Source of the DNA: Gemmatimonadota bacterium
Lineage (GTDB): Bacteria > Latescibacterota > UBA2968
Assembly: GCA_026705765.1 (NCBI GenBank)
Contig: JAPPAB010000106.1
Span: 624 to 64,623, forward strand
DNA: 64,000 nt
Reading direction: 5' to 3'
Shown: piece by piece, positions 45,994 through 64,000 of the stretch
Layout: each line of letters begins with the position of its first letter
How positions within the stretch are numbered: position 1 is the first letter of the stretch
The notes under the pieces: generated by a model
The model's database searches: none
Told to the model about the DNA's origin: nothing
The model's input: only the letters and a program-made list of their open reading frames with translations
Translations under genes and position numbers: made by a program

Positions 45994-46992
45994 TCACGAT
46001 CGCTCCGCAATATAGGTTTCCGCATCGATTTTTCCCTCGGCAATCAATTCGCGGAACAGTGCCACAGTTTCCGCCACGCCTTCTGTCAGCGGCTTGTGCG
46101 CCACTTTGCCAATCGCAGCCTCTAACCCACTGCCATCGACTTCCTGGGGAAATGGCAACTGGATATCTTCAAACGTGACCTTATCCGCCGCCTCGGGTGC
46201 TGCCCGATCAATCGCATCCTTCACATCCTGCATATCGGGTGCAAATCCACCCAAATTAAACGCTCCGGCACCCGCGTAATCGGCTCGTGCAGCCTGAATA
46301 AACGCGCACGCCGTATCATCGGCATATTGAAAAACCGTGCGCCCGCCATAAGAAATGTGATAGGGCAAATTCGCCGCTGCTGCGAGCATAGCGGTCGTAG
46401 GCGTAGAAGTAATTCCCTGATCGCGCCCCACCCCATAGACTACATAGGGCCGAAAACCGATAGAAGACACACCCTCGTCGAGCCAATACACATGTGCGGT
46501 ACCCTCATTCGCCTGTTTGTACACGCCGTAATGCGTATGGGGCATCAGTGCGGAATCATCTCGCATCACAGCGCCCGGCTCGTAATCCTCAGGCGCGCCA
46601 AAAACCGCGACAGAACTCGCATAGACCACTTTGTCAATACGCTCCTGCCGGCGTTTCACAGCTTCAAAAACATTTGCAGTACCCACCACATTGACGCGCG
46701 CACCGAGCGGTGGATCGGCTTTGCAAAACGGCACTTGAAGCCCTGCCAGATGAATGACATGCGTAATCTCATTATCATCCAGCGCCTGTTCAAAATCGGG
46801 CAAATCCGCAATATCGCCCGCGACAAAGTTCACCTGAGCCAATTCGCCATCTGACAGCAACAATTGCAACCGCCGAGGCTCTGTCGCCAGATCGAATACC
46901 GTAACCGGCACCCCTTCGCGCACCAGATTGTACACAGTCCACGCGCCAATACACCCCAATGCACCCGTAACTAAAAAACGCTCGTCAGCCAT
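45994..46992 (-). CDS. NAD-dependent epimerase/dehydratase (SDR)
   Basis: FLVTGALGCIGAWTVYNL Rossmann motif. 332 aa. Confidence 0.75.
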   Translation of the reverse strand: MADERFLVTGALGCIGAWTVYNLVREGVPVTVFDLATEPRRLQLLLSDGELAQVNFVAGDIADLPDFEQALDDNEITHVIHLAGLQVPFCKADPPLGARVNVVGTANVFEAVKRRQERIDKVVYASSVAVFGAPEDYEPGAVMRDDSALMPHTHYGVYKQANEGTAHVYWLDEGVSSIGFRPYVVYGVGRDQGITSTPTTAMLAAAANLPYHISYGGRTVFQYADDTACAFIQAARADYAGAGAFNLGGFAPDMQDVKDAIDRAAPEAADKVTFEDIQLPFPQEVDGSGLEAAIGKVAHKPLTEGVAETVALFRELIAEGKIDAETYIAERS

Positions 46993-52500: not shown

Positions 52501-54050
52501 CGCATGCGGTCGTCGGGATCCAGCTTGTAATCGGGCAAAAAATCCTCGGAATTTAACCCGAGATCGAGCACGCCAGCAAGCAGGCGTATCTGCCCGGTGA
52601 GATTTTCGAAATTCACATGCTCGGGTTTATCCAGTGGGGTATCCACTCTGAAACGCGCATCGTTGACCGTAATGAGCGACAGTGCAGGCGTCCCCGCTTC
52701 CAAAACGACCTCGCCATCTGTTTTCAGAATTTTGCCCGGGATATACATATCCCAGCTCATGCCGCCTTTTGGATTGATCCCATCGATGAGGGCATCGGCG
52801 GGGTCCAGATCAAATCGCTCGGCTATTGCCTTTGAATAATGTATAAACGACTTGCCAAATGGCGTGAAGAAACGCTTGTAATAATAATTGCGCGTGCTGT
52901 TCCAAACCCCGATTTCATCTGTCTGACTCGTCAAATCCAGAGAAATCAACAGTGGCAAATCGAGGGGTTCGGTCATCAACGCGGCAAAATGCTTTTCCTT
53001 GCGCGAATGCCTGCTCAAAAAATCGCAAATGCCCCTGAAGCCGAGATGGTGCCCGGAAGAAGCGAGAAACAAAAGCGTGTGTTTGGGCGGGTACTTGCTA
53101 AAATATTCAGCCAACTTCATCATGCCCACAATCCCACACGCCATCTCCGCACCCGGCGCAAGCGCAGGCACCACAGACATCGCATCGTAATACGTATTGA
53201 TCACCACGATTTTTTCGCTCAATACAGGATCGGTCCCGCGAATCCAGCCCAAAATATTCCGCGTCTCTTTCTTTTCCCAATCCATTCGCGCCTTCAAAGT
53301 GACATTGACCTCATCCTTTTGCGCGAGCAATGCCTTGAGTCTTTCGCCACTCTCCTTATCGATCCAAAATCGCTCAACACTATTGGGCACCTGCAAAAAT
53401 TTGGTCTCTGCCTGCGCGGTAAACGTGGAATCGGGTTCAACAAATATTATCTGCTGCGCGCCGAGCATGGCGGCATTGAGCCAGTTATTCCACGAATTAA
53501 ACTCCATCAACACCACCGCACCTTCTATATCGCGCCCATTAAATTCCGATACATCGCCAGTGCCACCCCACAAGAGATGCCCCCGCACGCCACCTGGGGG
53601 CAATGTGGTCGTCTTGACCAGATTGGGCCATAGACCGTGAATAGAAAAAACCTCGCCGGTATCTTCTACTTCTAAGCTGCCGCCCCGGTCTATGGGCACC
53701 GCCACGCCATACGTCTCGGCTTCGACGTCTTCTAATTCCAAACGCCGAAACTCGGATTCTATAAAATCCGCGGCTTTTTCATGGCCTTCATACCCCACTA
53801 CGCGCGAGTCGTAGCGCACAAACTGATCCATCAACGCGTGAATCCCATCTTCGCGCACAGCATCCAGAACCCGTGTGCCCACTTCTTCTGCCCGCGGAAC
53901 GGGTTCGGGGAGAACCTCGCCGGGCGTTTCCAATCCCAACAGAGTAGCTATATGGGGATTTACGCGATAGGGTCCCGCAATCAGAAGCGCAGTGACAAAA
54001 ATCCCCAGACCGATAAGGCTCCACGTGATGTGCTTGTAATATTTATCCAT
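49533..54050 (-). CDS. 1505-aa fusion: N-terminal TM anchor, PA plus M28-like zinc peptidase domain, then MacB/FtsX-type permease domain(s)
   Basis: LFLASSGHHLGFRG (M28-like). NMKKRKMRTSLTFATLVLLTFTVL (MacB/FtsX TM1 motif). MMGSVYERFREISIYSSVGLAP...FIAEACVYAVLG (FtsX core motif). Confidence 0.65.
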   Translation of the reverse strand: MDKYYKHITWSLIGLGIFVTALLIAGPYRVNPHIATLLGLETPGEVLPEPVPRAEEVGTRVLDAVREDGIHALMDQFVRYDSRVVGYEGHEKAADFIESEFRRLELEDVEAETYGVAVPIDRGGSLEVEDTGEVFSIHGLWPNLVKTTTLPPGGVRGHLLWGGTGDVSEFNGRDIEGAVVLMEFNSWNNWLNAAMLGAQQIIFVEPDSTFTAQAETKFLQVPNSVERFWIDKESGERLKALLAQKDEVNVTLKARMDWEKKETRNILGWIRGTDPVLSEKIVVINTYYDAMSVVPALAPGAEMACGIVGMMKLAEYFSKYPPKHTLLFLASSGHHLGFRGICDFLSRHSRKEKHFAALMTEPLDLPLLISLDLTSQTDEIGVWNSTRNYYYKRFFTPFGKSFIHYSKAIAERFDLDPADALIDGINPKGGMSWDMYIPGKILKTDGEVVLEAGTPALSLITVNDARFRVDTPLDKPEHVNFENLTGQIRLLAGVLDLGLNSEDFLPDYKLDPDDRMRGLQGFVRTFPRLSITPDRPRPGAVASLRMGNDKSIKGVRRVYYDIADENGEFYMPGIAERRVDVKAFYMDPESGEITYAPNHGRQARIYRGEFNMDWWISKRTRILFPCIATDFYETVDPRYLTKLSSISVLGPGNTAPQEYGYAIGFGPEEPVGTIFTTPGERVKIVMREREIGVRYLLLNSKSAESVEVARGDGFQILQHGGAFIRSSYQAAKDMWTLNEARMRELEKYSIENQRMTNLHTQAKHHLDLAEEAMQDKKWDLFVKHTRAGMGLESRAYPDVKSTQNDVIRGVIFFMILVIPCAFFVERLLFTFSDIRVQISGFGAVFMVIWIVLSQVHPAFDLSNPFVILLAFVIFALAIFVISIVSGRFHENIRQLRTEEVLLHDTDVGRISASVAAFQLGIANMKKRKMRTSLTFATLVLLTFTVLSFTSIKTTLDFHQLPLDDTEGTYPGLLIRSQFWGPLEDTAYDYARVNFFDQGDIAPRSWYVTRDLKKTPIETPEKTTKVLGILGLAVNEPAVTRIDTLLSHGRWFEEGEFACILPGKIAGLLKVEPEDIGKKSVRLFGKQLKVVGLIDAEKMRNHPDLDGEMLSPADFKLTDDEIISQMTQQENRERQGLEQPQLENMPFEHIDPDDIAIIPYKILREVGSPLQSVAIRLREDVNVEEQVKKYVSRLSVVVYAGIPGEDGKIQVSIYSSLGWGPLPGLANLFVPILVAALIVLNTMMGSVYERFREISIYSSVGLAPVHIAFLFIAEACVYAVLGTVSGYLLGQGVIKVLLWQGWLQGLNVNYSALSTVISSALVMVVVLISSLYPARQASMMAVPDVTRRWKLPDPEGDHWHFEFPFTVGGKDVFGLSVFLVDYFESHMGESMGAFYTDGARFGAIEAATGAGYTIDTTIWLAPYDLGVSQQVHFEAVPTGEHNIFAMTLTIDRLSGDAASWRRVNQGFMNALRKQFLIWRTVDPTNRTKYTEKGRELLSAPTAAANA

Positions 54051-56049
54051 AGCGATGTACCCAATGCCCGCGTTCAGGGAACCAGATTATGTCGATACCC
54101 ACTGACAAAGCCACACCGAGAATATATCCGACGAGCAAACCGATGAACAGGGGTCTCGATTTGCGATAAACCGTTGGACCGCCTACTTTTATGATCACAA
54201 ACTTAATCAACCATGCAAGAAAAGTCGTAAAACTGCTGCGCCGGACCAGATAAGAACCCGAAATCGCCAGACCCACGGGATGCAGCGGCCACCACGCAAA
54301 GCGATAGCGCATATAAATCAACCCGGCCATCATCAGACCGCCAATGCCAAAAAATACCGCTTGTTCGGGATTATCCTCATAAAATGGCGGCTCATCGGGT
54401 TTTTTGATCGCATCGACCGTACCCTGGAAATGGCGTTCGGCTGCCCGCGTAATCTCCCAACTGTTGAAATTATAAGCCCCCTGATCGTAACCCAACCACA
54501 CGGTGAATAACATATTGAACAGCAAGCTGACAATAAACACCAGTCCAAGCGCGCCCATCAGCCGCCGCCGCTGATTGCCGGGAACGCCCTCGGAGACGCG
54601 TCCTGCATGGGAAAGCGCGGGCAAAAACAACCCCTTGAAATGCCCGGTAATCAAACCCGAATAGCGGTAAGCGACAATGGTGGCAAGCGGGATATTGCGC
54701 CGTCCAAAAAATGGTGCCACCATACTCCAGGGTCCTATCGGTGTATTGGTAAATGGCATGCCGGTATCCGCCAGGATCTTCGCCATACCCGTATAGACAA
54801 AAATTACGGCGAGGAGCAGCAAAAATCCTTGCAGCGGATCGAAATTCATCTGTGTCAGCCAGATAAACAAATATGCCATGCTGCACAGCAGACCGATACA
54901 AGCAGCGCGATAAGACATCAATTCCCCAGAGTCATCCACTGTGGGATCTCTCCCAAGTGCCTTCATCAACACATCTCTCAAATGTCTTCTCGCAACCCAG
55001 AAGGTCGAACACACAAAAACAATAAATGCGCCCGCAGTCTGCCAGTAATACACCCCCGTGCGATAATAAGGCGTGGTGGCTTTATAGCCCCACTTGCTGA
55101 GCTGACCGCCCTCAAAGATGAACAACAAATCAAAAAACCAGATTGAAAACAGAACATCCAGGCTGGCAAAATAAGAAAAAAGTATAGTAAAAATGCCAAA
55201 ATATCCCCTGATAGGCGGCAATTGGCGATCAATCCAGTACCAGCGCGACCGGTAAATGGGAAAACGCGGAAAACCCGGTACAAAGTAATTGATACAATTC
55301 CAGGCCAGCACGCCAAACGCAATGGCAAACCCGATCCAGAACAAACGATTGCGCATAAACCCGGGCAACCATCCCTCGCCATCGCCCGGTTCAGAAACCA
55401 TATCGATCAACGGCGCCATCGCGGGAAAAACCAGGCGTTCGTTTTGTACCCACTGTTTTCTCAAAACAGTAGCTACACAGGCCAGCATTAAAAAAGCTGC
55501 CGCCACAACCGTCGTCCACCAGAACAGGGGCAATACCCAAACATCCCAGGGGATAGTAGCACCACTCGGCAAGCCTTCGTAAAACCACGCAACGGCATTC
55601 CCCTTGTGACTCGGCAACAGCCAGTTGGGCAAAAGCGGGTGCAGGTGTTCAGCCCACTGATTTTCTTCCGTAGCAAAATAATAAGGCGCCGTGATATAGC
55701 CGATCAAATATCCCGTCAGGCCAAAACACGGCAGTGCCGCGCCCACGAGGCCCATCGCCAGAATCGCATGCCACTCGCCTGGTGAAAGTGTCCAGCCGGT
55801 CACCCTTGCAACAATCGCGAGTCCGATCATCAGAATCATCAACACGATCAGCATGGCCATTGGAATGTGGCTATACGTCATCAGCGGAGCGTGCAAGATG
55901 TAGCGCACACAAATAGCCAGCAGATCCAGGGCGACGACCAGAAATAGCCCCAATCCCACGGCGCGCAATGTTACTGCGGGTTGTGAACTCGCATCATCTG
56001 CTTCCGTCTGAATATTTTGCGTATCAAGAGCCATTGGCGCAGTTTTCAC
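54043..56049 (-). CDS. 668-aa polytopic membrane protein (first gene of the three-gene membrane operon)
   Basis: About 14+ hydrophobic segments. 8-nt overlap with the downstream M28-FtsX gene. Confidence 0.6.
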   Translation of the reverse strand: MKTAPMALDTQNIQTEADDASSQPAVTLRAVGLGLFLVVALDLLAICVRYILHAPLMTYSHIPMAMLIVLMILMIGLAIVARVTGWTLSPGEWHAILAMGLVGAALPCFGLTGYLIGYITAPYYFATEENQWAEHLHPLLPNWLLPSHKGNAVAWFYEGLPSGATIPWDVWVLPLFWWTTVVAAAFLMLACVATVLRKQWVQNERLVFPAMAPLIDMVSEPGDGEGWLPGFMRNRLFWIGFAIAFGVLAWNCINYFVPGFPRFPIYRSRWYWIDRQLPPIRGYFGIFTILFSYFASLDVLFSIWFFDLLFIFEGGQLSKWGYKATTPYYRTGVYYWQTAGAFIVFVCSTFWVARRHLRDVLMKALGRDPTVDDSGELMSYRAACIGLLCSMAYLFIWLTQMNFDPLQGFLLLLAVIFVYTGMAKILADTGMPFTNTPIGPWSMVAPFFGRRNIPLATIVAYRYSGLITGHFKGLFLPALSHAGRVSEGVPGNQRRRLMGALGLVFIVSLLFNMLFTVWLGYDQGAYNFNSWEITRAAERHFQGTVDAIKKPDEPPFYEDNPEQAVFFGIGGLMMAGLIYMRYRFAWWPLHPVGLAISGSYLVRRSSFTTFLAWLIKFVIIKVGGPTVYRKSRPLFIGLLVGYILGVALSVGIDIIWFPERGHWVHRYG

Positions 56050-56245: not shown

Positions 56246-56321
<76 letters not shown>

Positions 56322-56375
56322 TTTTTTTAGTTGACCATACACAGACGTAGATTTTCTTTTTAAGTTCCAGATATA

Positions 56376-56420
56376 AAAAAGGGTGTGAACTTTCAGTGTT
56401 CACACCCTTTTTATTTTTTG
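56376..56420. terminator. Bidirectional rho-independent terminator
   Basis: AAAAAA-GGGTGTGAAC-tttcagt-GTTCACACCC-TTTTTATTTTTT. Serves tRNA-Phe on the plus strand and the FGE gene on the minus strand. Confidence 0.65.
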
Positions 56421-56429
56421 GTAAAAAAA

Positions 56430-57260
56430 TCACAAACTCTGAGCAACTCGAAACCCCACATAAAGGCTCCCGGCAAAGGCACTGTGTCGGTCGCGAGTAG
56501 CCGAGCGAAGGAAAAACCCTTCCAGATACCAGGCACCGCCGCGCACCACGCGCGCAGTGCGATCACCGACCTCCCACGCAGACCCGTCCTTGGGTGCTCC
56601 CACATATCTATTATTATACCAATCCTGAGTCCATTCCCACACATTGCCGTGCATGTCGTAAAGCCCCCAGGCATTGGCCTCGAACGATCCCACAGGTGCT
56701 GACATCTCATTATCCCACTGACTGCCGCACCCATTGCAATTGGCGCGGTTGTGACCGAGATTATGTCCCCAGCTATACCTCGTCACTGTTCCTGCGCGCG
56801 CCGCATACTCCCACTCTGCCTCGCTCGGCAAACGATAGTTTTTTCCCGTCTGCTCCGATAGCCATTCCGTGTACGCCACCGCATCATCCCAGGTGATATT
56901 GATCACCGGACGCCGCCCGCGCCCAAAACCTCTGTCATCTGCTCGCTCGCGCCCCGTCGCATCCGTGAAGAGATCGTATTCCTCAAATGTCACCTCGTAC
57001 TTCGACAGCGCAAACGATTTAATCGTCACCTCATGCACCGGTCTTTCGGCATTGGTGCAACTTCTCCCGGACACGCACCCCATCTTAAAACGCCCCGCGG
57101 GAATCACCACCATCTCTGGCGACTTAAAAGCAGCCATCTTCTCCTGTGAAACCTGAGCGGATGCAACCGTGAAAAATCCCAATAAGACGAAAACAAAAAT
57201 ATTCCTGGTCACACTCTGCATGATATATCTCCTATCATTAATTACCTGATAAATGCTCAT
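56430..57260 (-). CDS. Formylglycine-generating-enzyme (FGE/SUMF1) family protein, secreted
   Basis: RLPSEAEWEYAARAG ... YDMHGNVWEWTQDWY ... VVRGGAW, classic FGE-sulfatase domain motifs. Signal peptide at the internal start MQSVTRNIFVFVLLG. Confidence 0.75.
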   Translation of the reverse strand: MSIYQVINDRRYIMQSVTRNIFVFVLLGFFTVASAQVSQEKMAAFKSPEMVVIPAGRFKMGCVSGRSCTNAERPVHEVTIKSFALSKYEVTFEEYDLFTDATGRERADDRGFGRGRRPVINITWDDAVAYTEWLSEQTGKNYRLPSEAEWEYAARAGTVTRYSWGHNLGHNRANCNGCGSQWDNEMSAPVGSFEANAWGLYDMHGNVWEWTQDWYNNRYVGAPKDGSAWEVGDRTARVVRGGAWYLEGFFLRSATRDRHSAFAGSLYVGFRVAQSL

Positions 57261-57305
57261 AACACAAAAAATAAAACAACTTCTTATGGATGAGAAACAT
57301 ATTTT

Positions 57306-58034
57306 TCACCTTCCGATAATCACATTGACCAGGGCGCCGGGGCGGACATACTTTCCCGCATTCAAAAAAAGACCCGTTACTTTGCACGTCCCATTTTCCG
57401 GATCAATTATGGGACTGATCCCGACGACGCGCCCGAGCAACGCGCGCTTTCCCCCGGCGGTCATCACGGCAGACAGCGGCATATTCTTATAGATCGCGTT
57501 CAGCATGTCCTCGGACACAAGCAGATGCACCTGAAGGTCCATATGGTCGATCACCCGCGCGACCGCGGTGTAAGCCAGTATCCAGTCGCCTGCCTTTACA
57601 TTGACCTCGACCACCATCCCGTCCTGGGGTGCGATGATCGCGGTTCTGTCCAGTTCCATGCGCGCGGTGACCCAGTTGCAGTGCGCGACCTCGGCATCAA
57701 AGCGGACATTCTCAAGCTGCTGGTCACTGATCAGTTTCTTATCGTGCAACATTTCCCAGCGCGCTTTCAGGGTCTGGGCCTTCTTCAATGCAATTCGAGC
57801 TGCTGCTTCCTTCACGCGCAGATCTCGGCGGATTAATACCATAAGGGTATCCCCTTTGACCACCCGGTCTCCCACCTCAAAGTTGACCTGCTGCATCCGC
57901 GCGTTCATCCCGGCATAGACCGTCGCCGACCGCGCAGGTACTAAAGGTGCTCTCAATATCAGTTCTTGTGCATTGCCCCTTGCGGCAATGAGCATGAGGA
58001 ACAGGCCGCACAGAAACATCGCGTTGTATATCAT
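57306..58034 (-). CDS. HlyD-family membrane-fusion/periplasmic adaptor-like protein
   Basis: Signal/TM N-terminus, biotin-lipoyl-like hairpin (VVKGDTLMVL ... IIAPQDGMVVEVNV) and beta-barrel segment. 4-nt overlap with the upstream gene. Confidence 0.6.
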   Translation of the reverse strand: MIYNAMFLCGLFLMLIAARGNAQELILRAPLVPARSATVYAGMNARMQQVNFEVGDRVVKGDTLMVLIRRDLRVKEAAARIALKKAQTLKARWEMLHDKKLISDQQLENVRFDAEVAHCNWVTARMELDRTAIIAPQDGMVVEVNVKAGDWILAYTAVARVIDHMDLQVHLLVSEDMLNAIYKNMPLSAVMTAGGKRALLGRVVGISPIIDPENGTCKVTGLFLNAGKYVRPGALVNVIIGR

Positions 58035-59224
58035 AGTTGGTCTCCTGTCAGACGAATACGTAACACACCCCTGAATCGCACGTTTTTGCGTTTCAGGGCC
58101 TCGATCTCTTTCTGCTTTTCCGCCAGTTCTTTCTCAATTTCCCACCGTTTCAGGTAGTGAACAGGCGGATAAGCCATTTTCAGGTCCTCCAGTTTTTCAA
58201 AAGCCTCTTGCTTCTGCCTTGACAAATCTTTTACGCGCTCAGTGAGACCTCTTAAAACGGGCCGAAACCGCGAAACCTCCTTTTTTTGCGCAAATTTGAA
58301 TTCAATCTCCCGAGTAGTGAAACGGACAGCACCGCCCAGACGTTCTTCCTCTCCAACTTCAAAAGAAGCATCTGCCTCAAGCAGCCCAGATACAAAACTG
58401 TTTACGGGAATCCGTTCCACCATCTCCTGATAGGTCTCGCCTTTCAACCGGATCGTCTGTATTCTCACGGGGCGATCCGTCTCCTCCACGCGCACCTTAT
58501 CCGGCAAAATAGCGCCGTGTTCTCCGCATGTCAGAACTCGCCCATTGAAAAAGATCCAGAACCACGCGGGTCTCGCATCGAGGATCAGGGCTTTTCCACT
58601 CACCTTCTCCCGCGTGTGTCGCCATTGTCCTTCAAAATTCAAATAGGTTTCTGTATTGGCTCTCCGATAATCTGAGTATGCGGCCGAAGGCGTCGCCATC
58701 AGGTATCTAAATGATCGCCAGATACCGCCCTTATGTGATACGGGCATGAACGCCACGAGCAGTATGACAACCACAGCCAATACAGTACCCTCCCCCATAA
58801 GGGATCCGGTTTTGACCCTGTATTTCGCGCTGCCGGGAAATACACAAACCGCGGGATGGGGATAAAACAAGGGCACGCCGCTTTTGGTCGTACTATCGGC
58901 GATCAAGTGGCTCATATAGCCCAGGAGTATGGCCGCATAACACGCGGTGTCCCAGGCGAGTAAGGGCAAAGTGACAACCGATAGCGCAAGCACACAGAGC
59001 AGCGAATGCGTAATCGAGCGATGCCCCCACCGCCGCTCAATCGGGATGGAAGCAAAGGGCATCGCCCGACCAATAGAACTTCTCGGCGAATCCACATCCG
59101 GAAGCAGGCTCCCTATGATCGCGCATGCGACCGCGGGAAGATTGCGGTGAAAGGACAAGGAAAAGAGCGAAAAGGATCCCGCTACCGTGAGCAGCCCAAA
59201 TGCAATATGTGTAGGTGCAGTCAT
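58031..59224 (-). CDS. Membrane-bound metal-dependent hydrolase (YdjM/DUF457-like) N-terminal domain fused to a C-terminal coiled-coil region
   Basis: N-terminal about 170 aa polytopic with HRSITHS and SHLIADS His motifs. C-terminal about 200 aa charged and heptad-rich (EALKRKNVRFRGVLR...). Confidence 0.55.
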   Translation of the reverse strand: MTAPTHIAFGLLTVAGSFSLFSLSFHRNLPAVACAIIGSLLPDVDSPRSSIGRAMPFASIPIERRWGHRSITHSLLCVLALSVVTLPLLAWDTACYAAILLGYMSHLIADSTTKSGVPLFYPHPAVCVFPGSAKYRVKTGSLMGEGTVLAVVVILLVAFMPVSHKGGIWRSFRYLMATPSAAYSDYRRANTETYLNFEGQWRHTREKVSGKALILDARPAWFWIFFNGRVLTCGEHGAILPDKVRVEETDRPVRIQTIRLKGETYQEMVERIPVNSFVSGLLEADASFEVGEEERLGGAVRFTTREIEFKFAQKKEVSRFRPVLRGLTERVKDLSRQKQEAFEKLEDLKMAYPPVHYLKRWEIEKELAEKQKEIEALKRKNVRFRGVLRIRLTGDQL

Positions 59225-60780
59225 CGTTTGAACCTGTACATAAAGAATCGAATGCCTACAAGAATCGCGCTGCCAATACCCGCCAGCACATAGCCCTCCA
59301 TACTCCCGATACCGCGCATGAAGAATCGCGCCGCGACCACGAATAGGAGAATCAGCACCACGGCGAACGTGAGATCGATCTGATCTCGCGCGCCCGTGTG
59401 GGACACATCCCTGACCGCGGATCGGGTTACCGCCGGTTCTTTGCGAAGCCGTTCCACAATCTCAATAATGGCGCGCGGATTGCCAGCACTCTGTTGTAAT
59501 ACCCGAGTCTCGGTCATGGCGTAGTCTTCTATGTCGGCGCCCGCGGCGCACTGGCGGATCAGCTTCTTGGCGTCCTCGGTAGATAGGTGCTCTACTTCTA
59601 CGCATTCGAACTTCCAGAAGTATTTCTCGTAAGGCTTCCGGACTTCTGGTAGAGCAGCAATAATGGTAAACTTGCGGTTGAGTTTGTCGATTAATCGCCC
59701 GACGGAGGCGGTCATATCCGACAGGTCATCCACGATCAACACGAACTCGTTTCTCTCAACTGAGCCGAGCACCATATCGGTCCAGCCCTGAATGCTCGTG
59801 CGGGTGTGTTGCTTTTTGATCGTTTCAAAGTTGTCTGGACCATCCGGACATAGCCTTCCGATTTTGTGCAACCCCTCCGCAATATTTATCAGGTTCTCTT
59901 TCACTGGTGAAAGCGTCTTTACCTTCAGTGCGTTCTCTGCGTCGAGTAGCGCGAGCAAATGGCTTTTGCCCACGCCGATTGGACCAACGACCAGGGTATC
60001 AATACCCTTGCTCAAGTTGCCTGTGAGCTGGCACAATTCCTCATCGCGTCCCACTGTCTTTCCCATCCCGACCCTCGACCGCGCAAAGAATCTGTAATCG
60101 CGATTCTTCAGGCGCGACCACCACCGCGACAACCGCGATCTGCGGTCAATGCGATCAACAGAACGCCGCTTTTGCTCTTCACTAACAGAGATGTAAATGG
60201 ACGCCGCCTCAATGGACGCATGCCCCATCAAGTCCTTGATCCGCTCAACCGGCACATCCCGATCTGCGAGGTCTGTGCCGAAGGTGTGCCTGAGCATGTG
60301 CGGATGGACGTGGCGGATCCCCGCGCGCTGGGCGCAGGTCTTCAGGGCTGCCCACACGGTCTTGCGGCTGAGACGCTGTCCGTTGCGGAGATTGCAAAAG
60401 ACGTATTCAGAATCCGAAAACCGACGGGACTCCAGCCATTCTCGGAGCACATCCTGCACCTCGGGGTTCATCGGGACAACGCGCTCTTTGCCACGCTTAT
60501 CCGCAAAGCGAAGGCTCGGTGTGTCCGTTGACCAGTGGATATTGTCAACCGTGAGTGAACACGCTTCGGATACGCGCAGACCACACATCGAGAGCACGGC
60601 AATGAGCGCGCGATCACGCGAATTCATGCGTACGGATTTGAGTGCTTCAAGCTCGTGTTGCGCGAGCGCTTTTGGTACTGCTGGACGGGTTACAAGTGAC
60701 TGGTGAACCATGGAAATACCCTCCTGTATGGGTTGGAATTGAAACTTCGTGCCCTTCAAATAGTGCAAAAATCGTGCCAA
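59221..60780 (-). CDS. Fusion protein: tyrosine-recombinase catalytic domain (no core-binding domain), P-loop ATPase, and C-terminal two-helix membrane anchor
   Basis: Box I LSMCGLRVSEACSL. Box II HPHMLRHTFGTDLA. MGHASIEAASIYISV gives the R-H-R-H-Y pentad. Then Walker A VVGPIGVGKSHL and Walker B FVLIVDDL. C-terminal hydrophobic helices FAVVLILLFVVAARFF / VLAGIGSAILVGIRFF. The likely true start is MVHQSL at 60711. Confidence 0.7.
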   Translation of the reverse strand: MARFLHYLKGTKFQFQPIQEGISMVHQSLVTRPAVPKALAQHELEALKSVRMNSRDRALIAVLSMCGLRVSEACSLTVDNIHWSTDTPSLRFADKRGKERVVPMNPEVQDVLREWLESRRFSDSEYVFCNLRNGQRLSRKTVWAALKTCAQRAGIRHVHPHMLRHTFGTDLADRDVPVERIKDLMGHASIEAASIYISVSEEQKRRSVDRIDRRSRLSRWWSRLKNRDYRFFARSRVGMGKTVGRDEELCQLTGNLSKGIDTLVVGPIGVGKSHLLALLDAENALKVKTLSPVKENLINIAEGLHKIGRLCPDGPDNFETIKKQHTRTSIQGWTDMVLGSVERNEFVLIVDDLSDMTASVGRLIDKLNRKFTIIAALPEVRKPYEKYFWKFECVEVEHLSTEDAKKLIRQCAAGADIEDYAMTETRVLQQSAGNPRAIIEIVERLRKEPAVTRSAVRDVSHTGARDQIDLTFAVVLILLFVVAARFFMRGIGSMEGYVLAGIGSAILVGIRFFMYRFKR

Positions 60781-60856
60781 AATTTGCCCAAAATCCCGTA
60801 ACTGATTGCAGGAGAGTATGTTTTTAAAAAATGCCCAAAAATGGACATGCGAAAAA

Positions 60857-60919
60857 GTGTTTCAAATGAAACAGTTGGTGTTTCAAATGAAACAGTAAGT
60901 GTTTCAAACGAAACAGTTT
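60857..60919. repeat. Three tandem 21-bp direct repeats, each an imperfect palindrome (GTGTTTCAAATGAAACAGTnn)
   Basis: gtgtttcaaatgaaacagttg / gtgtttcaaatgaaacagtaa / gtgtttcaaacgaaacagttt read directly. Lies 77-140 bp upstream of the recombinase-ATPase ORF. Confidence 0.8.
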
Positions 60920-60962
60920 GATTAGAATTAAATAAGTGGACTATTAGGGATATTACACAAAA

Positions 60963-60990
60963 AAAGCCCTGAAGAACACAGGGCATTTTG
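60963..60990 (-). terminator. Rho-independent terminator for the RelE/XRE operon (minus strand)
   Basis: Minus-strand reading GCCCTGtgttcttCAGGGC followed by TTTTTTT. Confidence 0.5.
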
Positions 60991-61138
60991 GAGGATATTT
61001 ATGGTAATGATGCTCGGATTAGCACTATACTGGAAATGTCGCGATCATCCGGGGCAGGGGACCAGCGGATGCAATAACTAAAACAAAACGACTTTCTGTT
61101 AATTGAAATGTTATACACCAAAACAGGTCAAGTCCAAT

Positions 61139-61465
61139 TTAGCGAGATGATACTGTTTCTTGCAGAGGATGAAAAGAAATTCGAATCTGTTTATGTAATG
61201 CGGCGGCGATTCGCCGTAGCATAGCCAGTGAGTGCCCTTCGTAGTCTGCATTTTCAAGTCTGCAGATGACAGATGCCGATGTCCCAACCTTTTTTGCCAA
61301 TTCTCGTTGGGACAGTCCAGACTCGATTCTGATCTGGTAAAGTTGGGCAGCAACTTCGGCGTGTATTCTTTCTGTTTTTAACAGGACTTCCATTTCCTGG
61401 TCGCCTTCAACATAGCGTTTGTGAAGAATCGCTACGGCATCGGTAGTTTTTTGTGTTTTCATCAA
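61139..61465 (-). CDS. XRE-family HTH antitoxin
   Basis: SGLSQRELAKKVGTSASVICRLEN helix-turn-helix. 4-nt overlap with the upstream toxin gene. Confidence 0.7.
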   Translation of the reverse strand: MMKTQKTTDAVAILHKRYVEGDQEMEVLLKTERIHAEVAAQLYQIRIESGLSQRELAKKVGTSASVICRLENADYEGHSLAMLRRIAAALHKQIRISFHPLQETVSSR

Positions 61466-61836
61466 TCATTCTCCAGCGAATAGGTGTGTCGCCCGGGGTT
61501 CTGTTCAAAGTTTCTTTTTCTTTGAATTGCGAGGTTAATTTCTGTGGAAGGCACGCGCTGTTCTTTAACAATACCGTGTGAAATCACAGTGGCATTACGT
61601 CCCCAAAAAAAGTAAAGAAGCCGATATTGAATGCCGCGATAAGCGATGCGAAGCTCATAGATGTCGTCTCTCAAGTAATCAGATTCGGGCCTCCGAAGTT
61701 CATGACCTAATTTTTGGAGTCGTTCAATTTTCACGATACATTTGGCTTTGACTTTAGGAAGGAGTGCGTCAAGCCAGGCGAGAACTGGAACGTTTCCATT
61801 CGTTTCTTGATAGAATATGACCTGGATTTCCGGCAT
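61462..61836 (-). CDS. RelE/ParE-superfamily toxin (Gp49/HigB-like)
   Basis: 124 aa. IFYQETNGNVPVLAWLDAL ... DIYELRIAYRGIQYRLLYFF matches the Gp49-like addiction-module killer family. Confidence 0.7.
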   Translation of the reverse strand: MPEIQVIFYQETNGNVPVLAWLDALLPKVKAKCIVKIERLQKLGHELRRPESDYLRDDIYELRIAYRGIQYRLLYFFWGRNATVISHGIVKEQRVPSTEINLAIQRKRNFEQNPGRHTYSLEND

Positions 61837-62106
61837 TGAGTATCGTTATTTCCTGAGTGACGCTTTCTATATTTATTTTAATGTTCTCAAATTTAAGAAC
61901 AAAGTCAACAGATTTTATTGAGTAGCCGGCGCACCGTGCCTACGCCCACGCCACTGTTCACTATCTCCGTCGCGGCTGTATGCCGAAACTGATGGATCTC
62001 GCATTTGACCTCTGCCTGATCACACAGCTTTGTCCACTGATACAGCGCGATCCCATAACTCATGCGCTGATCTTTGTATTTTCCCGTCCTGAGGTAAAAC
62101 TATCGG

Positions 62107-63426
62107 TTATTTCCCCTCAAGTTCTGCCGCCAGTTGCGCCAACCACGCATCCACATCCGGGGGAATATCCAGCGGTCGTCTGACCATATTTATTTCAGGA
62201 TATCCGCCCACCTCGTTCTGACTATCTATCATCCGGCCTTCGCGCGTTCGAAATTCGTGTATAATCCGTTTGTCAATTGCATCGCGGTCTTTCGGACGCG
62301 CACCCGCGCTTGCCACCACATGTTCCACTACCGCTGATGCGGGCAATGGTGTGATGTTGCCCCAGATGGGTTTCTCTTCCAAAATGCGGATATTGCCCGA
62401 GGTCAAAGGCACATTGGTTCCTGTTCTATCCAACGCGATATTATCCTCGAGATACGCATCACCCGTTGCCGATACCAATGCCAGTCCTGACCGTGTATCG
62501 TTGCCGTGGATCATCACGTTGCCCACCACACTCACCCTCGCATTTTGTGGGATAAAATCGACATCGTTAAACTGCCCACTGATAAGATTAAGGTGAATTG
62601 CTCGAGATCCTGGATTATAGATCAGATTGTTCACAATAACACCTGTTGCAGATGCCTTAAAAAGTGGACTGCGCTCTACATTATGGGCATACAAATTGCC
62701 GATAATGGCAATTTCTCGGCAGAAATCGTGAATCAGCGATCCCTTTGAATGTGGGCCGCCGCTATGAGACGCATCATGCAGACCTTCGGAGATAATACAA
62801 TTGCGAAATGTGATGCGATGAGAAGTCGCATCCGGTCCTTCTGTACGCGGACCAGACGCGCTCAAATTCTCATCTACTGCCCATGAAATCGAACAGTGAT
62901 CGATTAACACATTATAAGCTTCACCTCCCCACGTTGAAATACCATCAGGCTCCCATCCACTTCTTTTGGGTTCTCCCGCATCGCCCGGTCGCACCCGAAT
63001 ATGTTGCACAATCACATCGTGTGTCTCAATGAAAATGGCACCGCGAATGATTGTAATGCCCGGACTCGGCGCGGTTTGTCCCGCCACTGTCACATACGGT
63101 TCGCTAATGGTCAACTGCGCCTTATTCAGATCAATTACGCCTCCCACTTCAAATACCACAATACGCGGTCCCGATGCAGATAGTGCCTCATTCAGTGATC
63201 CCTGTCCACTTGCAGACAGGTTTGTCACCCGAAGGACTCTGCCTCCACGTCCACCAGGCGTGTTCATACCAAAATCGCTGGTCTGATTCTCCGTAATATC
63301 AAAGCGGTGTGCATACCTATCCAGCCCATCACGGGTATTATCTTCTTCTTGCCCTGTAGGTTTATCACCACCACACGCGATAAGTGCGACAAATATGCAC
63401 AACACGATTTTTTGGATTAAATTCAT
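62107..63426 (-). CDS. PL1-family pectate lyase-like lipoprotein (right-handed beta-helix)
   Basis: Lipobox LIACGG. Repetitive beta-helix segments. HDVIVQHIRV and IDHCSISW resemble pectate lyase catalytic-region motifs. 439 aa. Confidence 0.65.
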   Translation of the reverse strand: MNLIQKIVLCIFVALIACGGDKPTGQEEDNTRDGLDRYAHRFDITENQTSDFGMNTPGGRGGRVLRVTNLSASGQGSLNEALSASGPRIVVFEVGGVIDLNKAQLTISEPYVTVAGQTAPSPGITIIRGAIFIETHDVIVQHIRVRPGDAGEPKRSGWEPDGISTWGGEAYNVLIDHCSISWAVDENLSASGPRTEGPDATSHRITFRNCIISEGLHDASHSGGPHSKGSLIHDFCREIAIIGNLYAHNVERSPLFKASATGVIVNNLIYNPGSRAIHLNLISGQFNDVDFIPQNARVSVVGNVMIHGNDTRSGLALVSATGDAYLEDNIALDRTGTNVPLTSGNIRILEEKPIWGNITPLPASAVVEHVVASAGARPKDRDAIDKRIIHEFRTREGRMIDSQNEVGGYPEINMVRRPLDIPPDVDAWLAQLAAELEGK

Positions 63427-63637: not shown

Positions 63638-64000
63638 TTACGGCAGATTCAATGGTATTTTTATCTCAGCCTCGGGTTCTCGGTAAGCGCGATAGGTTGC
63701 CCAATAAGTCTCTCCCGAATAGGCATTGAGTCGGAAGACCTCCGTACCGTTAGCATCAACCTCACTTAGTGCTACCGCCCTCTCCTCTATCCCCAGACTT
63801 TCGCCGTAACCGCGGTCATTCCGCCACGCAATCAGCCAATTCCCATTATCGAGCACCGTAACCCCTCCCCACCAGGGCGTATAACCGTATTTCGGCTCCA
63901 ACCGAAACTGACGTATGAAACTGGCCCGACCACTAAGAGGATCAATCGCGTATTCTACCACCCGGGAAAACGGCTCCAGGTCACTGCGATCAGGAGATTC
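63638..64000 (-). CDS. Hypothetical protein, N-terminus beyond the window edge (partial)
   Basis: ORF continues without stop to position 64000 on the minus strand. Trp/Tyr-rich, probably secreted. Confidence 0.35.
   Translation of the reverse strand, partial: ESPDRSDLEPFSRVVEYAIDPLSGRASFIRQFRLEPKYGYTPWWGGVTVLDNGNWLIAWRNDRGYGESLGIEERAVALSEVDANGTEVFRLNAYSGETYWATYRAYREPEAEIKIPLNLP

What the first reader, a model, noticed from the sequence alone, without database searches (positions are those of the whole stretch)
57306..60780. Operon encoding a tyrosine-recombinase catalytic domain fused to a P-loop ATPase and membrane anchor, with a membrane hydrolase-coiled-coil protein and an HlyD-like adaptor
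The first gene has a complete recombinase catalytic pentad region (LRVSE..., HMLRHTFGT, GHASIEAASIYI) but no N-terminal core-binding domain. It continues into a Walker A/B NTPase (GPIGVGKSH; LIVDDL) and ends with two hydrophobic helices. That is a domain combination I do not recognise from any described integrase, Xer or transposition system. It is translationally coupled (ATGA overlaps) to a YdjM-like membrane metal hydrolase fused to a long coiled coil, and then to a secreted HlyD-like adaptor. The presence of the tandem palindromic repeat array in its leader strengthens the idea of a DNA-acting, membrane-associated machine.
Basis: partly seen in the sequence, partly recalled or inferred. 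Interest (0 to 1): 0.7.

Follow-up and report, generated by a model that had tools for sequence, protein, structure and literature searches.

The report
Membrane-anchored recombinase-ATPase fusion with partner hydrolase
This is a real, widely conserved but undescribed operon whose first protein joins the DNA-cutting half of an integrase to an ATP-driven switch and a membrane anchor, is always paired with a membrane metal-hydrolase, occurs on plasmids and genomic islands in several phyla, and has unknown function.

Summary
Three translationally coupled minus-strand genes encode:
- A: a tyrosine-recombinase catalytic domain without a core-binding domain, a STAND/AAA_16-type P-loop NTPase, and a C-terminal two-helix membrane hairpin.
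- B: a YdjM-family membrane metallohydrolase with a beta-rich domain and a helical hairpin.
- C: a short secreted HlyD/MFP-like adaptor.

The fusion is not a frameshift artefact. It recurs in hundreds of independent assemblies at 24-95% identity. The catalytic R-K-H-R-H-Y and the Walker A/B residues are kept in about 50 of 51 full-length homologues, and dN/dS is 0.12-0.20.

The conserved core is the gene pair A+B, found in 16 of 16 metagenomic loci and 10 of 10 assessable plasmids. The recombinase head is sometimes degenerate, replaced by a winged helix, or precisely deleted at the orthologous locus.

The 21-bp palindrome array is not a recombinase substrate. It lies about 100 nt upstream of a perfect sigma-54 promoter, and the same leader precedes integrase-less copies. 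It is therefore most likely an enhancer for an NtrC-type activator.

Function is unknown. My best guess (0.4) is a mobile-element or island-borne conflict or exclusion module: a membrane-tethered DNA-sensing/cleaving STAND switch working with a hydrolase effector. A plasmid-maintenance role is the main rival. I found no published description.

The parts
60856..60918 (-). Three tandem 21-bp units, each holding the palindrome TGTTTCA-N2-TGAAACA. Interpreted as the upstream activating sequence (enhancer) for a sigma-54 activator.
   Evidence: locate the array. It is conserved in L008, L004, L009 (no integrase domain) and the paralogue L005. It lies about 100 nt upstream of the -24/-12 element.
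60764..60779 (-). Sigma-54 promoter element TGGCACGATTTTTGCA (-24 GG, -12 GC), 68 nt upstream of the start codon.
   Evidence: There are only 2 matches in the window on both strands, against 0.2 expected. An equivalent element stands upstream of the operon in L001/2, L004, L005, L007, L008, L009/10, L093/4, L099 and L101.
60720..60725 (-). Ribosome-binding site AGGAGG, 8 nt before ATG 60711.
   Evidence: Sequence. It is conserved in the alignment A7.
59221..60711 (-). Gene A, 496 aa: recombinase catalytic domain, STAND NTPase and membrane hairpin.
   Evidence: The AlphaFold2 model has mean pLDDT 81.
60109..60654 (-). Gene A residues 20-201: Xer-like tyrosine-recombinase catalytic domain (R46, K72, H138, R141, H164, Y173). 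No core-binding domain precedes it.
   Evidence: Pfam E 3e-39. NCBIfam XerA profile positions 73-260 of 263 are matched. Foldseek finds XerA, XerH and the Brujita integrase. The catalytic residues are conserved in 48-51 of 51 homologues.
59392..60060 (-). Gene A residues 218-440: STAND/AAA_16-type P-loop NTPase. Walker A is GPIGVGKS (243-250), Walker B is LIVDD (324-329), and a GNP motif lies at 410-412 in the helical lid.
   Evidence: AAA_16 is matched in 66 of 92 relatives, and ATPase_2, NB-ARC and nSTAND models also match. Foldseek finds RFC, MgsA, NB-ARC and CED-4.
59239..59373 (-). Gene A residues 447-491: two hydrophobic helices forming a C-terminal membrane hairpin.
   Evidence: dN/dS is 0.03-0.08.
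58031..59224 (-). Gene B, 397 aa. Residues 1-166 are a YdjM/DUF457 membrane metallohydrolase with invariant H6, D43, D45, H68, H73, H106 and D110. A beta-rich domain (191-324) and a helical hairpin (327-379) follow.
   Evidence: pLDDT 88. There is no significant PDB fold match. The gene is always adjacent to gene A.
57306..58034 (-). Gene C, 242 aa: N-terminal hydrophobic signal or anchor, then a truncated membrane-fusion-protein (HlyD/MacA/MexJ-like) lipoyl and beta-barrel region.
   Evidence: It is present only in relatives with at least about 45% identity.

Best explanation
What is shown:
- This is a sigma-54-dependent, three-gene operon.
- Its conserved core is a pair of inner-membrane proteins.
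- Protein A has a cytoplasmic Xer-like tyrosine-recombinase catalytic domain with an intact active site and no core-binding clamp. A basic helix joins that domain to a STAND (AAA_16-type) NTPase, and a C-terminal helical hairpin holds the protein at the membrane.
- Protein B is a YdjM-family (phospholipase C / P1-nuclease-like) membrane metallohydrolase with an extra beta-rich domain and helical hairpin.
- Protein C is a periplasmic adaptor-like accessory.
- The module sits on plasmids and in variable, defence- and toxin-antitoxin-rich chromosomal islands in Latescibacterota/Gemmatimonadota-like MAGs, Proteobacteria, Bacteroidota and Leptospirales.

What is inferred:
- It is a conflict or exclusion module carried by mobile elements.
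- Transcription is switched on by an NtrC-type activator bound to the three palindromes.
- The STAND NTPase acts as a nucleotide-dependent oligomerisation switch at the inner face of the membrane.
- Oligomerisation brings several clamp-less recombinase heads together on DNA, taking over the assembly role of the missing core-binding domain. The heads bind the DNA and, through Tyr173, nick it or covalently trap it.
- The co-translated YdjM hydrolase is the membrane-side effector or remodelling partner.
- C links the complex to the periplasm or outer membrane.
For: The fusion is real and selected:
- There were 424 homologues in the word-index search and 463 representative clusters for the ATPase-membrane half. 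Of 92 long members, 79 carry Phage_integrase.
- The active-site and Walker residues are conserved.
- dN/dS is 0.12-0.20 for the recombinase domain and 0.12 for the NTPase.

The A+B pairing is obligatory:
- It holds in 16 of 16 loci, including members at 24-31% identity.
- It holds in all 10 assessable PLSDB plasmids, with the gene order swapped in Spirosoma.
- Fused B+C (P0272) and B+HTH_36+DnaA_N (P0344) proteins exist.

STAND character:
- AAA_16, ATPase_2, NB-ARC and nSTAND models match across the family.
- Foldseek finds NB-ARC, CED-4 and RFC.
- The Walker B is of the hhhhDD type and a GNP motif is invariant.

The N-terminal head is shuffled, as is typical of conflict systems. It can be active, degenerate (GLFLxE, no HxxR), replaced by a winged helix (P0148), or deleted (P0067, P0092).

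Genomic context:
- L008 has PARIS-like AAA_15+DUF4276, DUF499, TIR, HEPN/NTase and MazE.
- L006 has a type I restriction-modification system.
- L101 has AbiE, a KAP NTPase and BrnT.
- L100 has GAAD/GASH.
- The Nitrosococcus plasmid has MazF, Abi and a GIY-YIG nuclease with helicase and methylase.
- This window has HigB/HigA-like genes and an integrase remnant.

Sigma-54 control is supported. Activator genes lie adjacent in L001, L005, L099, L100 and L101.
Against: - No experiment bears on function.
- No PADLOC model matches.
- The family is absent from 50,697 phage genomes and from IMG/VR with the patterns used.
- Sigma-54 induction with STAS, PilZ and response-regulator neighbours looks more like a signalling or envelope regulon than a typical constitutive defence system.
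- On several plasmids the pair lies next to rep or par genes. Some chromosomal clusters carry initiator-like (HTH_36/DnaA_N) and DnaC/IstB-like genes. Both fit a maintenance or replication role.
- The recombinase head can be lost while the rest of the operon stays under selection, so DNA cleavage cannot be the core activity.
- No target DNA site was identified.
- The window protein's own AAA_16 score (22.6 bits) is below Pfam's gathering cut-off.
Confidence: 0.4

Rival explanations
1. Maintenance module of plasmids or integrated elements. A would be a self-contained, membrane-anchored resolution or segregation enzyme. It would follow the logic of membrane-bound FtsK activating XerD, but in one polypeptide and with a STAND switch. 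It would resolve multimers or tether the replicon to the membrane. B and C would remodel the envelope at that site.
For: - On plasmids the pair lies in or near the backbone. In pA5BP1 (14 kb) it is about 2 kb from rep, and the plasmid also carries ParA.
- In pHALHY01/02 it is next to the replication initiation gene.
- In the Methylobacter plasmid it is 3 kb from replication initiator protein A, and in Flammeovirga 5 kb from rep.
- ParA and ParB lie upstream in L011.
- Initiator-like HTH_36/DnaA_N proteins and DnaC/IstB-like AAA+ proteins follow the operon in L001, L004, L099 and L100.
- The catalytic domain is Xer-like.
Against: - Integrase-less versions sit on plasmids too (Nitrosococcus, Allochromatium, Methylobacter). 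Site-specific resolution therefore cannot be the shared function.
- No dif/cer-like site was found.
- Chromosomal copies in this window lineage are syntenic with housekeeping-type flanks and lack any rep or par genes.
- An obligatory metallohydrolase partner has no precedent in resolution systems.
Confidence: 0.25
2. Sigma-54-controlled envelope or stress-response module. The recombinase or winged-helix head would serve only as a DNA-binding domain of a membrane-tethered regulator or DNA anchor. The YdjM hydrolase and MFP-like protein would carry out membrane or cell-wall remodelling.
For: - Sigma-54 promoters with enhancers, dedicated activators, and STAS, PilZ and response-regulator neighbours are present.
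- Degenerate active sites in a sub-branch and replacement by a winged helix suggest that binding rather than catalysis is the common denominator.
- From general knowledge, not tested here: E. coli ydjM belongs to the LexA regulon.
Against: - The full catalytic hexad is kept in about 98% of the closer homologues and is under purifying selection. A pure binding role would not need this.
- The distribution is patchy and plasmid- or island-borne, not what a housekeeping envelope function would show.
- The palindromes are also present where A lacks any DNA-binding head (L005, L009), so A's head does not explain them.
Confidence: 0.15
3. One reading: the recombinase domain acts on the 21-bp palindromic repeats in its own leader, as recombination or binding sites of a DNA-acting machine.
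For: - The repeats are palindromic, and they are significant.
- They lie directly upstream of the gene.
- Tyrosine recombinases bind inverted half-sites.
Against: - The same repeats, sigma-54 promoter and ribosome-binding site precede integrase-less operons at the orthologous locus (L009/L010). They also precede a paralogous locus (L005) that has an adjacent NtrC-type activator.
- More distant relatives have different palindromes at the same distance from their sigma-54 promoters (L001, L099).
- Spacing and position (three sites, 21-nt phase, about 100 nt upstream of -24) are those of an enhancer.
- No inversion or excision variants of the leader were seen among the relatives.
Confidence: 0.05
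4. Assembly or frameshift artefact joining an integrase fragment to a separate ATPase gene.
For: - Stand-alone ATPase-membrane proteins of 281-306 aa exist.
- A Maribacter record splits the gene into two partial proteins.
Against: - The identical junction occurs in hundreds of independent assemblies, including complete plasmids of cultured strains and Mb-scale long-read contigs.
- The linker is a conserved, confidently modelled helix.
- No family member has a core-binding domain, so none looks like a normal integrase that was truncated.
Confidence: 0.01

Closest known systems
Xer-type single tyrosine recombinases (archaeal XerA, XerH, XerD/XerC)
   Same: The catalytic domain matches in sequence and fold. 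The best NCBIfam hit is XerA at 3e-42, and the best Foldseek hits are 4a8e, 5jjv and 5hxy. The full R-K-H-R-H-Y set is present.
   Different: There is no N-terminal core-binding domain in any family member. Scores are far below the equivalog cut-offs (145 against 220 bits). The domain is fused to an NTPase and a membrane hairpin. No dif-like site was identified, and the domain is dispensable in some lineages.
STAND NTPases with N-terminal effector or DNA-binding domains (antiviral Avs proteins; AfsR/MalT-type regulators)
   Same: The architecture is an N-terminal effector or DNA-binding head followed by an AAA_16/NB-ARC-like NTPase with hhhhDD and GxP motifs. The head is shuffled across the family. 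The genes occur in islands and on plasmids.
   Different: There is no C-terminal repeat sensor; a two-helix membrane anchor takes its place. A tyrosine-recombinase head is, to my knowledge, not described for Avs. The YdjM partner is obligatory. No PADLOC model matches.
FtsK-XerCD (a membrane-anchored ATPase that activates a Xer recombinase)
   Same: The logic is shared: a Xer-like catalytic domain is coupled to a membrane-bound nucleotide-driven protein. This analogy comes from general knowledge and the review PMC5357621 found.
   Different: FtsK is a RecA-fold translocase with N-terminal membrane helices and is a separate protein. Here the ATPase is a STAND-type switch, it is fused to the recombinase, and the anchor is C-terminal. 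This is analogy only, not homology.
Recombinase plus AAA+ helper pairs of transposons (IS21 IstA/IstB, Tn7 TnsC, Mu MuB)
   Same: A DNA-breaking and -joining enzyme is governed by an oligomerising P-loop ATPase. There is a weak NCBIfam IstB match (E 0.018), and IstB/DnaC-like genes lie in some extended clusters.
   Different: Those recombinases are DDE enzymes and the helpers are soluble. There are no transposon ends here, and the operon is syntenic in related genomes.
E. coli YdjM/YbcI (PF04307, DUF457) membrane metal-dependent hydrolases
   Same: B scores 96 bits against a cut-off of 29, and its His/Asp ligands are invariant.
   Different: B carries an extra domain of about 230 residues (beta-rich region plus helical hairpin) that E. 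coli YdjM (196 aa profile) lacks. It is obligatorily paired with gene A. The family itself has no established substrate.
Periplasmic adaptor (membrane fusion) proteins MacA, MexJ and ZneB
   Same: C passes the TIGR01730 cut-off and matches MexJ, MacA and ZneB chains.
   Different: C has only 242 aa, covering profile positions 9-244 of 322, and has no long alpha-hairpin. No cognate pump lies in the operon. C is absent from the more distant family members.

Membership tests
Tyrosine recombinase / Phage_integrase (PF00589) | Catalytic-domain profile match above the curated cut-off | tested here: met
   135 bits against a cut-off of 27.1, covering residues 20-178.
Tyrosine recombinase / Phage_integrase (PF00589) | Catalytic residues R-K-H-R-H/W-Y | tested here: met
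   R46, K72 and R141 are kept in 51 of 51 homologues, H138 and Y173 in 50 of 51, and H164 in 48 of 51.
Tyrosine recombinase / Phage_integrase (PF00589) | Catalytic-domain fold | tested here: met
   The AlphaFold2 model matches XerA, XerH and the Brujita integrase in Foldseek at E 5e-9 to 1e-7.
Xer / phage integrase functional classes | N-terminal core-binding (SAM-like) domain that clamps the DNA | tested here: not met
   Only 45 residues precede Arg I, and 38-67 in all complete homologues. The XerA profile is matched only from position 73.
Xer / phage integrase functional classes | Equivalog-level score to XerA, XerC or XerD | tested here: not met
   145 against 220 bits for XerA, 129 against 330 for XerD, and 127 against 335 for XerC.
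Xer / phage integrase functional classes | Cognate recombination site or element ends | tested here: inconclusive
   No flanking inverted or direct repeats of the att, dif or invertible type were found in 56300-62300, and there is no second copy of the tRNA-Phe 3' end. The target could lie elsewhere.
Xer / phage integrase functional classes | DNA cleavage and strand-exchange activity | not testable with these tools
   This needs biochemistry with a Y173F control.
STAND NTPase (AAA_16 / NB-ARC-like) | Walker A GxxxxGK[ST] and Walker B hhhhDD | tested here: met
   G243, G246, G248 and K249 are invariant. D328 is kept in 50 of 51 homologues and D329 in 49 of 51.
STAND NTPase (AAA_16 / NB-ARC-like) | Profile match above the curated cut-off | tested here: inconclusive
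   The window protein scores 22.6 bits against a cut-off of 32.6. Among relatives, 66 of 92 match AAA_16 at E <= 1e-3 (best 6e-12). ATPase_2 matches 23, NB-ARC 20, and nSTAND1/3/5/6 match 9-12 each.
STAND NTPase (AAA_16 / NB-ARC-like) | GxP motif in the helical domain after the NTPase core | tested here: met
   G410-N411-P412, with P412 invariant, lies at the start of helix 412-423. Equating this with the STAND GxP motif rests on my own knowledge of the family.
STAND NTPase (AAA_16 / NB-ARC-like) | C-terminal repeat sensor (TPR, WD40 or LRR) | tested here: not met
   The C-terminus is a two-helix membrane hairpin.
YdjM / DUF457 membrane metallohydrolase (PF04307) | Profile match above the cut-off and conserved His/Asp metal ligands | tested here: met
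   96 bits against a cut-off of 29. H6, D43, D45, H68, H73, H106 and D110 are invariant in 42-44 sequences.
Membrane fusion protein / periplasmic adaptor (TIGR01730) | Profile match above the cut-off | tested here: met
   117.4 bits against a cut-off of 94.9. PDB matches are MexJ, MacA and ZneB.
Membrane fusion protein / periplasmic adaptor (TIGR01730) | Cognate inner-membrane pump encoded alongside | tested here: not met
   The operon holds only A, B and C. The FtsX-type genes beyond tRNA-Phe are not conserved neighbours in other loci.
Sigma-54-dependent operon | -24 GG / -12 GC consensus at the right distance from the start codon | tested here: met
   TGGCACGATTTTTGCA stands 68 nt upstream of the ATG. 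It is conserved in at least 10 related loci, where it is usually the only match in 12-20 kb.
Sigma-54-dependent operon | Upstream activator sites and a cognate activator (bEBP) | tested here: inconclusive
   Three palindromes lie about 100 nt upstream. Activator genes lie adjacent in L001, L005, L099, L100 and L101. No GAFTGA-type activator is encoded in this 64-kb window. Binding was not tested.
Known anti-phage defence systems (PADLOC v2) | Match to a system protein model | tested here: not met
   The only hit is a marginal one to mad8, E 0.003 for A. B and C have none.

The most novel reading that the evidence does not exclude
The A-B(-C) module is a new kind of envelope-spanning DNA-handling device carried by plasmids and islands.

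In this reading, a ring of membrane-anchored STAND subunits carries clamp-less recombinase heads. The heads capture DNA at the inner face of the membrane by forming a covalent 3'-phosphotyrosyl link.

Two outcomes are possible:
- The device intercepts incoming foreign DNA, which would be exclusion by covalent trapping.
- The device hands the element's own DNA to a hydrolase- and adaptor-built passage for export or vesicle packaging.

Either would be a use of tyrosine-recombinase chemistry outside recombination, and a defence or transfer principle not yet described.
Probability: 0.12. Interest if true: 0.9.

Novelty: new variant of a known kind. Interest (0 to 1): 0.66.

Why it matters
Tyrosine recombinases are thought to need their core-binding domain to clamp DNA and to work as soluble tetramers. 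Here a whole family of hundreds of sequence clusters in at least five phyla has dropped that domain. It keeps the active site under selection and has welded it to a STAND-type switch and a membrane anchor, always next to a membrane metallohydrolase of a family that itself has no known substrate.

Whatever the module does, it is a new use of recombinase chemistry. It would also give a first functional handle on YdjM/DUF457 proteins.

The system is directly testable. It occurs on complete plasmids of cultured strains:
- Flavobacterium sp. ANT_P5B, plasmid pA5BP1
- Haliscomenobacter hydrossis DSM 1100
- Spirosoma taeanense
- Nitrosococcus oceani ATCC 19707
- Allochromatium vinosum DSM 180

Its predicted switch, a sigma-54 activator binding three palindromes, gives a way to turn it on.

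Tried and rejected
1. Frameshift or fusion artefact. Rejected on cross-assembly conservation and selection.

2. A hidden core-binding domain in the longer (556 aa) homologues. Rejected: the extra length is a low-complexity insert inside the NTPase.

3. An island integrated at tRNA-Phe with the fusion as its integrase. I found no repeat of the tRNA 3' end. The operon and its downstream flank are syntenic in relatives, and only the upstream flank varies.

4. An invertible promoter or shufflon. No suitable inverted repeats were found.

5. The adjacent HigA-like HTH protein as the binder of the palindromes. Unlikely, because the array persists where that toxin-antitoxin pair is absent (L008, L009, L005).

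6. LexA-box reading of the palindrome (CTGT-N10-ACAG). The sigma-54 enhancer reading explains position and spacing better.

8. The genome-contig scan with the full-length alignment was swamped by ordinary Xer integrases. Only L011 was a true family member.

9. The metagenome scan gave only 8 loci, and the viral scan gave none.

10. A profile search of PDB sequences with the NTPase half found nothing meaningful.

11. Eight literature searches found no description of the fusion or the gene pair. The tyrosine-recombinase classification paper located does not mention it either.

Full report
**1. What is there**

The minus strand carries three ORFs at 59221-60780, 58031-59224 and 57306-58034. Both junctions are ATGA overlaps.

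The first ORF as listed starts at a TTG at 60780. However, an AGGAGG site at 60720-60725 is followed by ATG at 60711, and the stretch upstream of it holds a promoter (see section 6). Close homologues begin with the same MVHQS peptide. I therefore take gene A as 59221-60711, 496 aa, and number residues from that ATG.

Profile searches:
- A: Phage_integrase, residues 20-178, E 3e-39, plus a weak AAA_16 match at 220-290.
- B: YdjM, residues 1-166, E 2e-27, plus a weak Zn-dependent phospholipase C match.
- C: HlyD_D23/HlyD_3, and TIGR01730 above its cut-off.

Hydropathy finds two C-terminal hydrophobic helices in A (447-465 and 473-491). It finds at least three strongly hydrophobic segments in B and one N-terminal segment in C.

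**2. The fusion is genuine**

The word-index search returned 424 homologues. The listed full-length ones have 29-95% identity. They come from MAGs labelled Gemmatimonadetes, Latescibacteria and Proteobacteria, and clusters at about 30% identity include Flavobacterium and Maribacter.

In an alignment of 51 full-length members:
- R46, K72 and R141 are invariant.
- H138 and Y173 are kept in 50 of 51, and H164 in 48 of 51.
- Walker A G243, G246, G248 and K249 are invariant, and Walker B D328/D329 is nearly so.

No member has more than 67 residues before Arg I, so the lack of a core-binding domain is a family trait. The 556-aa forms are longer because of a low-complexity insert inside the NTPase.

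Nei-Gojobori estimates against two relatives give these dN/dS values:
- recombinase domain: 0.12-0.20
- NTPase: 0.12
- membrane hairpin: 0.03-0.08
- B and C: 0.20-0.30

The AlphaFold2 model has mean pLDDT 81. It shows a recombinase catalytic domain, a long basic helix (193-216), a P-loop domain with a helical lid, and a helical hairpin. Foldseek finds XerA, XerH and the Brujita integrase for the first half. For the second half it finds RFC, MgsA, NB-ARC and CED-4.

**3. What kind of NTPase**

A profile of the NTPase-membrane half, searched against 1.84 billion representatives, found 463 clusters at E <= 1e-3. Most are about 500 aa with the match starting near residue 215.

Of 92 long members, 79 carry Phage_integrase. 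Matches to NTPase models were:
- AAA_16: 66 members
- AAA_22: 52
- ATPase_2: 23
- NB-ARC: 20
- nSTAND families: 9-12 each

With the hhhhDD Walker B and the invariant G-N-P at 410-412, this places the domain among STAND NTPases of the AAA_16 type. I read the G-N-P as the STAND GxP motif from my own knowledge of the family. The domain has no significant sequence match in the PDB.

**4. The conserved unit is A+B**

I searched the six-frame ORFs of 16 related loci with the window's proteins. A YdjM gene lay immediately next to gene A in every one of them. That includes the members at 24-31% identity, L006 and L011.

C is present only in relatives with at least about 45% identity.

tblastn of the NTPase half against PLSDB found 11 plasmids and no phage. 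In all ten that could be assessed, a 'metal-dependent hydrolase' lies adjacent:
- Flavobacterium sp. pA5BP1 (14 kb)
- Spirosoma taeanense pTS (gene order swapped)
- Haliscomenobacter hydrossis pHALHY01 and pHALHY02
- Flammeovirga
- Methylobacter
- Allochromatium vinosum pALVIN01
- three Nitrosococcus plasmids

Fused B+C (P0272) and B+HTH_36+DnaA_N (P0344) proteins exist.

B keeps H6, D43, D45, H68, H73, H106 and D110 in all 42-44 aligned sequences. Its model (pLDDT 88) adds a beta-rich domain (191-324) and a helical hairpin (327-379). No solved structure matches these convincingly.

**5. The recombinase head is variable**

- Some branches have a degenerate head (GLFLxE in place of GLRVSE, and no HxxR).
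- Others have a winged helix (HTH_24/HTH_36, P0148) or a Lin1244_N-like region.
- The gammaproteobacterial plasmids have no head at all.
- At the locus orthologous to this window, with the same FGE-sulfatase, DUF6785 and FtsX flank, L009 and L010 encode a 306-aa protein. It keeps the first ~24 residues and then jumps straight to the NTPase.
- A paralogous locus (L005) has a 281-aa version and no C.
- In L004 the same leader and MVHQS codons run into an inserted Rce1-like gene that precedes gene A.

DNA cleavage is therefore conserved in most members but is not the indispensable activity.

**6. The leader**

Reading 5' to 3' on the minus strand, the leader contains:
- a terminator-like hairpin at 60966-60984 that ends the upstream toxin-antitoxin pair;
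- three 21-bp units with the palindrome TGTTTCA-N2-TGAAACA at 60856-60918;
- TGGCACGATTTTTGCA at 60764-60779, a perfect sigma-54 -24/-12 element, 68 nt before the ATG.

The whole leader is conserved in L008, L004, L009/L010 and L005.

More distant relatives have their own sigma-54 element upstream of the operon or of the preceding STAS gene: L001/2, L007, L093/4, L099 and L101. It is usually the only match in the locus. L001 and L099 have different palindromes at a comparable distance.

Sigma-54 activator genes lie adjacent in L001, L005, L099, L100 and L101. None is encoded in this window.

The array is therefore best explained as an enhancer for an NtrC-type activator, not as a recombinase substrate.

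**7. Context**

The downstream flank is syntenic in close relatives: FGE-sulfatase, tRNA-Phe, DUF6785/6784 and a 1505-aa FtsX-domain protein.

The upstream flank varies:
- this window: a HigB/Gp49-HTH pair and a 52-aa integrase remnant;
- L008: PARIS-like AAA_15+DUF4276, DUF499, TIR, HEPN/NTase and MazE;
- L009: unrelated metabolic genes.

Other loci sit next to defence-type or mobile-element genes:
- a type I restriction-modification system (L006);
- AbiE, a KAP NTPase and BrnT (L101);
- GAAD/GASH, with a canonical integrase and excisionase (L100);
- MazF, Abi and a GIY-YIG nuclease with helicase and methylase (N. oceani plasmid);
- ParA and ParB (L011).

Extended clusters add two STAS proteins, a wHTH protein of 250-268 aa, a DnaC/IstB-like AAA+ protein, PilZ and activators. 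In Latescibacteria-type loci they add an HTH_36+DnaA_N protein with weak similarity to replication initiator O.

**8. Interpretation**

Firmly established:
- the architecture;
- its conservation;
- the obligatory A+B pairing;
- carriage on plasmids and islands.

Also well supported, but from sequence only: sigma-54 control. A conserved consensus -24/-12 element with upstream palindromes and nearby activator genes points to it, and rpoN dependence was not tested.

Function is inferred. I favour, at 0.4, a conflict or exclusion module in which three things happen:
- The STAND domain oligomerises at the membrane.
- Oligomerisation assembles the clamp-less recombinase heads on DNA, where they bind, nick or covalently trap it.
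- The YdjM hydrolase acts as partner or effector.

The grounds are the STAND architecture with a shuffled N-terminal head, the patchy distribution across phyla, and the neighbourhoods.

The main rival, at 0.25, is a plasmid or element maintenance role. The grounds for it are proximity to rep and par genes and the initiator-like neighbours.

A sigma-54-controlled envelope or stress module with a DNA-binding head gets 0.15.

**9. Novelty**

PADLOC has no model for these proteins. The systematic tyrosine-recombinase classification (PMC8138268) does not mention ATPase fusions or membrane anchors. Eight full-text searches found no description.

Public records call these proteins 'tyrosine-type recombinase/integrase', 'site-specific integrase' or 'ATP-binding protein', and their partner 'metal-dependent hydrolase'.

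I rate the finding as a new variant of known kinds: a STAND switch with an effector head, and a tyrosine recombinase. There is a modest chance that it is something categorically new.

Noticed in passing
window 61139-61836 (-): A Gp49/HigB-like toxin gene (61462-61836, PF05973, E 3e-18) overlaps an HTH_3 antitoxin-like gene (61139-61465). They lie directly upstream of the operon and end at the terminator at 60966-60984. A Gp49+HTH pair also neighbours the operon in L001/L002, but in divergent orientation.
   Followed up: partly
window 61905-62063 (-): A 52-aa ORF holds only the HxxR region of a tyrosine recombinase (HQFRHTAAT; Phage_integrase E 1e-4). It is probably the remnant of a canonical integrase and marks an old mobile-element insertion in the variable upstream flank.
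   Followed up: partly
window 56246-56321 (+): tRNA-Phe (GAA) lies between the FGE-sulfatase gene and the DUF6785 gene. No second copy of its 3' end exists in the window, so there is no evidence of an intact island integrated at this tRNA.
   Followed up: yes
window 47349-47364 (-): A second consensus sigma-54 element (TGGCACCGGATTTGCA) lies inside the 3' part of the 814-aa ORF 47067-49511, upstream of ORF 45994-46992. It may drive the downstream genes.
   Followed up: no
L004 7166-8001; L009 3146-3300; L005 7932-8010: The same leader (terminator, three palindromes, sigma-54 promoter, ribosome-binding site and the MVHQS/MIHQS/MTHPS first codons) heads different gene contents. These are the recombinase fusion (window, L008), a precise recombinase-domain deletion (L009/L010), a shorter paralogue (L005) and an inserted Rce1/CPBP-like gene (L004). 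The 5' end of the operon looks like a rearrangement hot spot.
   Followed up: partly
window 59313-59330 and 60099-60116: An 18-nt inverted repeat (17 of 18 complementary) lies inside gene A and brackets the NTPase-membrane part. It arises from codons for LKNRD and RFFMR. Three 'RFF' motifs occur in A (YRFFARS, ARFFMRG, IRFFMYR). It is probably a coding coincidence, but rough odds put it above chance expectation.
   Followed up: no
window 49533-56049 (-): A giant 1505-aa protein with a single FtsX-like permease domain and a 668-aa DUF6785/DUF6784 membrane protein lie downstream of tRNA-Phe. They are syntenic in L008, L009 and L010. No link to the MFP-like gene C could be shown.
   Followed up: partly
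window 62107-63426 (-) and 63638-63961 (-): Neither a 439-aa predicted lipoprotein-like ORF nor a 107-aa ORF has any Pfam match at E <= 1e-3.
   Followed up: no
L099 12807-16270; L100 12412-16465: Extended clusters downstream of A-B-C hold a wHTH protein of about 250-268 aa, a DnaC/IstB-like AAA+ protein, a small HTH_17-like protein, PilZ and one or two sigma-54 activators. Two STAS proteins lie upstream. Together these suggest a larger system of 8-10 genes in some lineages.
   Followed up: partly
L092 1602-2498; P0272; P0344: Natural fusions or truncations occur: a YdjM N-terminus joined to the HlyD-like part in one ORF (L092), a B+C fusion of 638 aa (P0272), and YdjM+HTH_36+DnaA_N of 601 aa (P0344). 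They could be real Rosetta-stone fusions or assembly or gene-calling artefacts.
   Followed up: no
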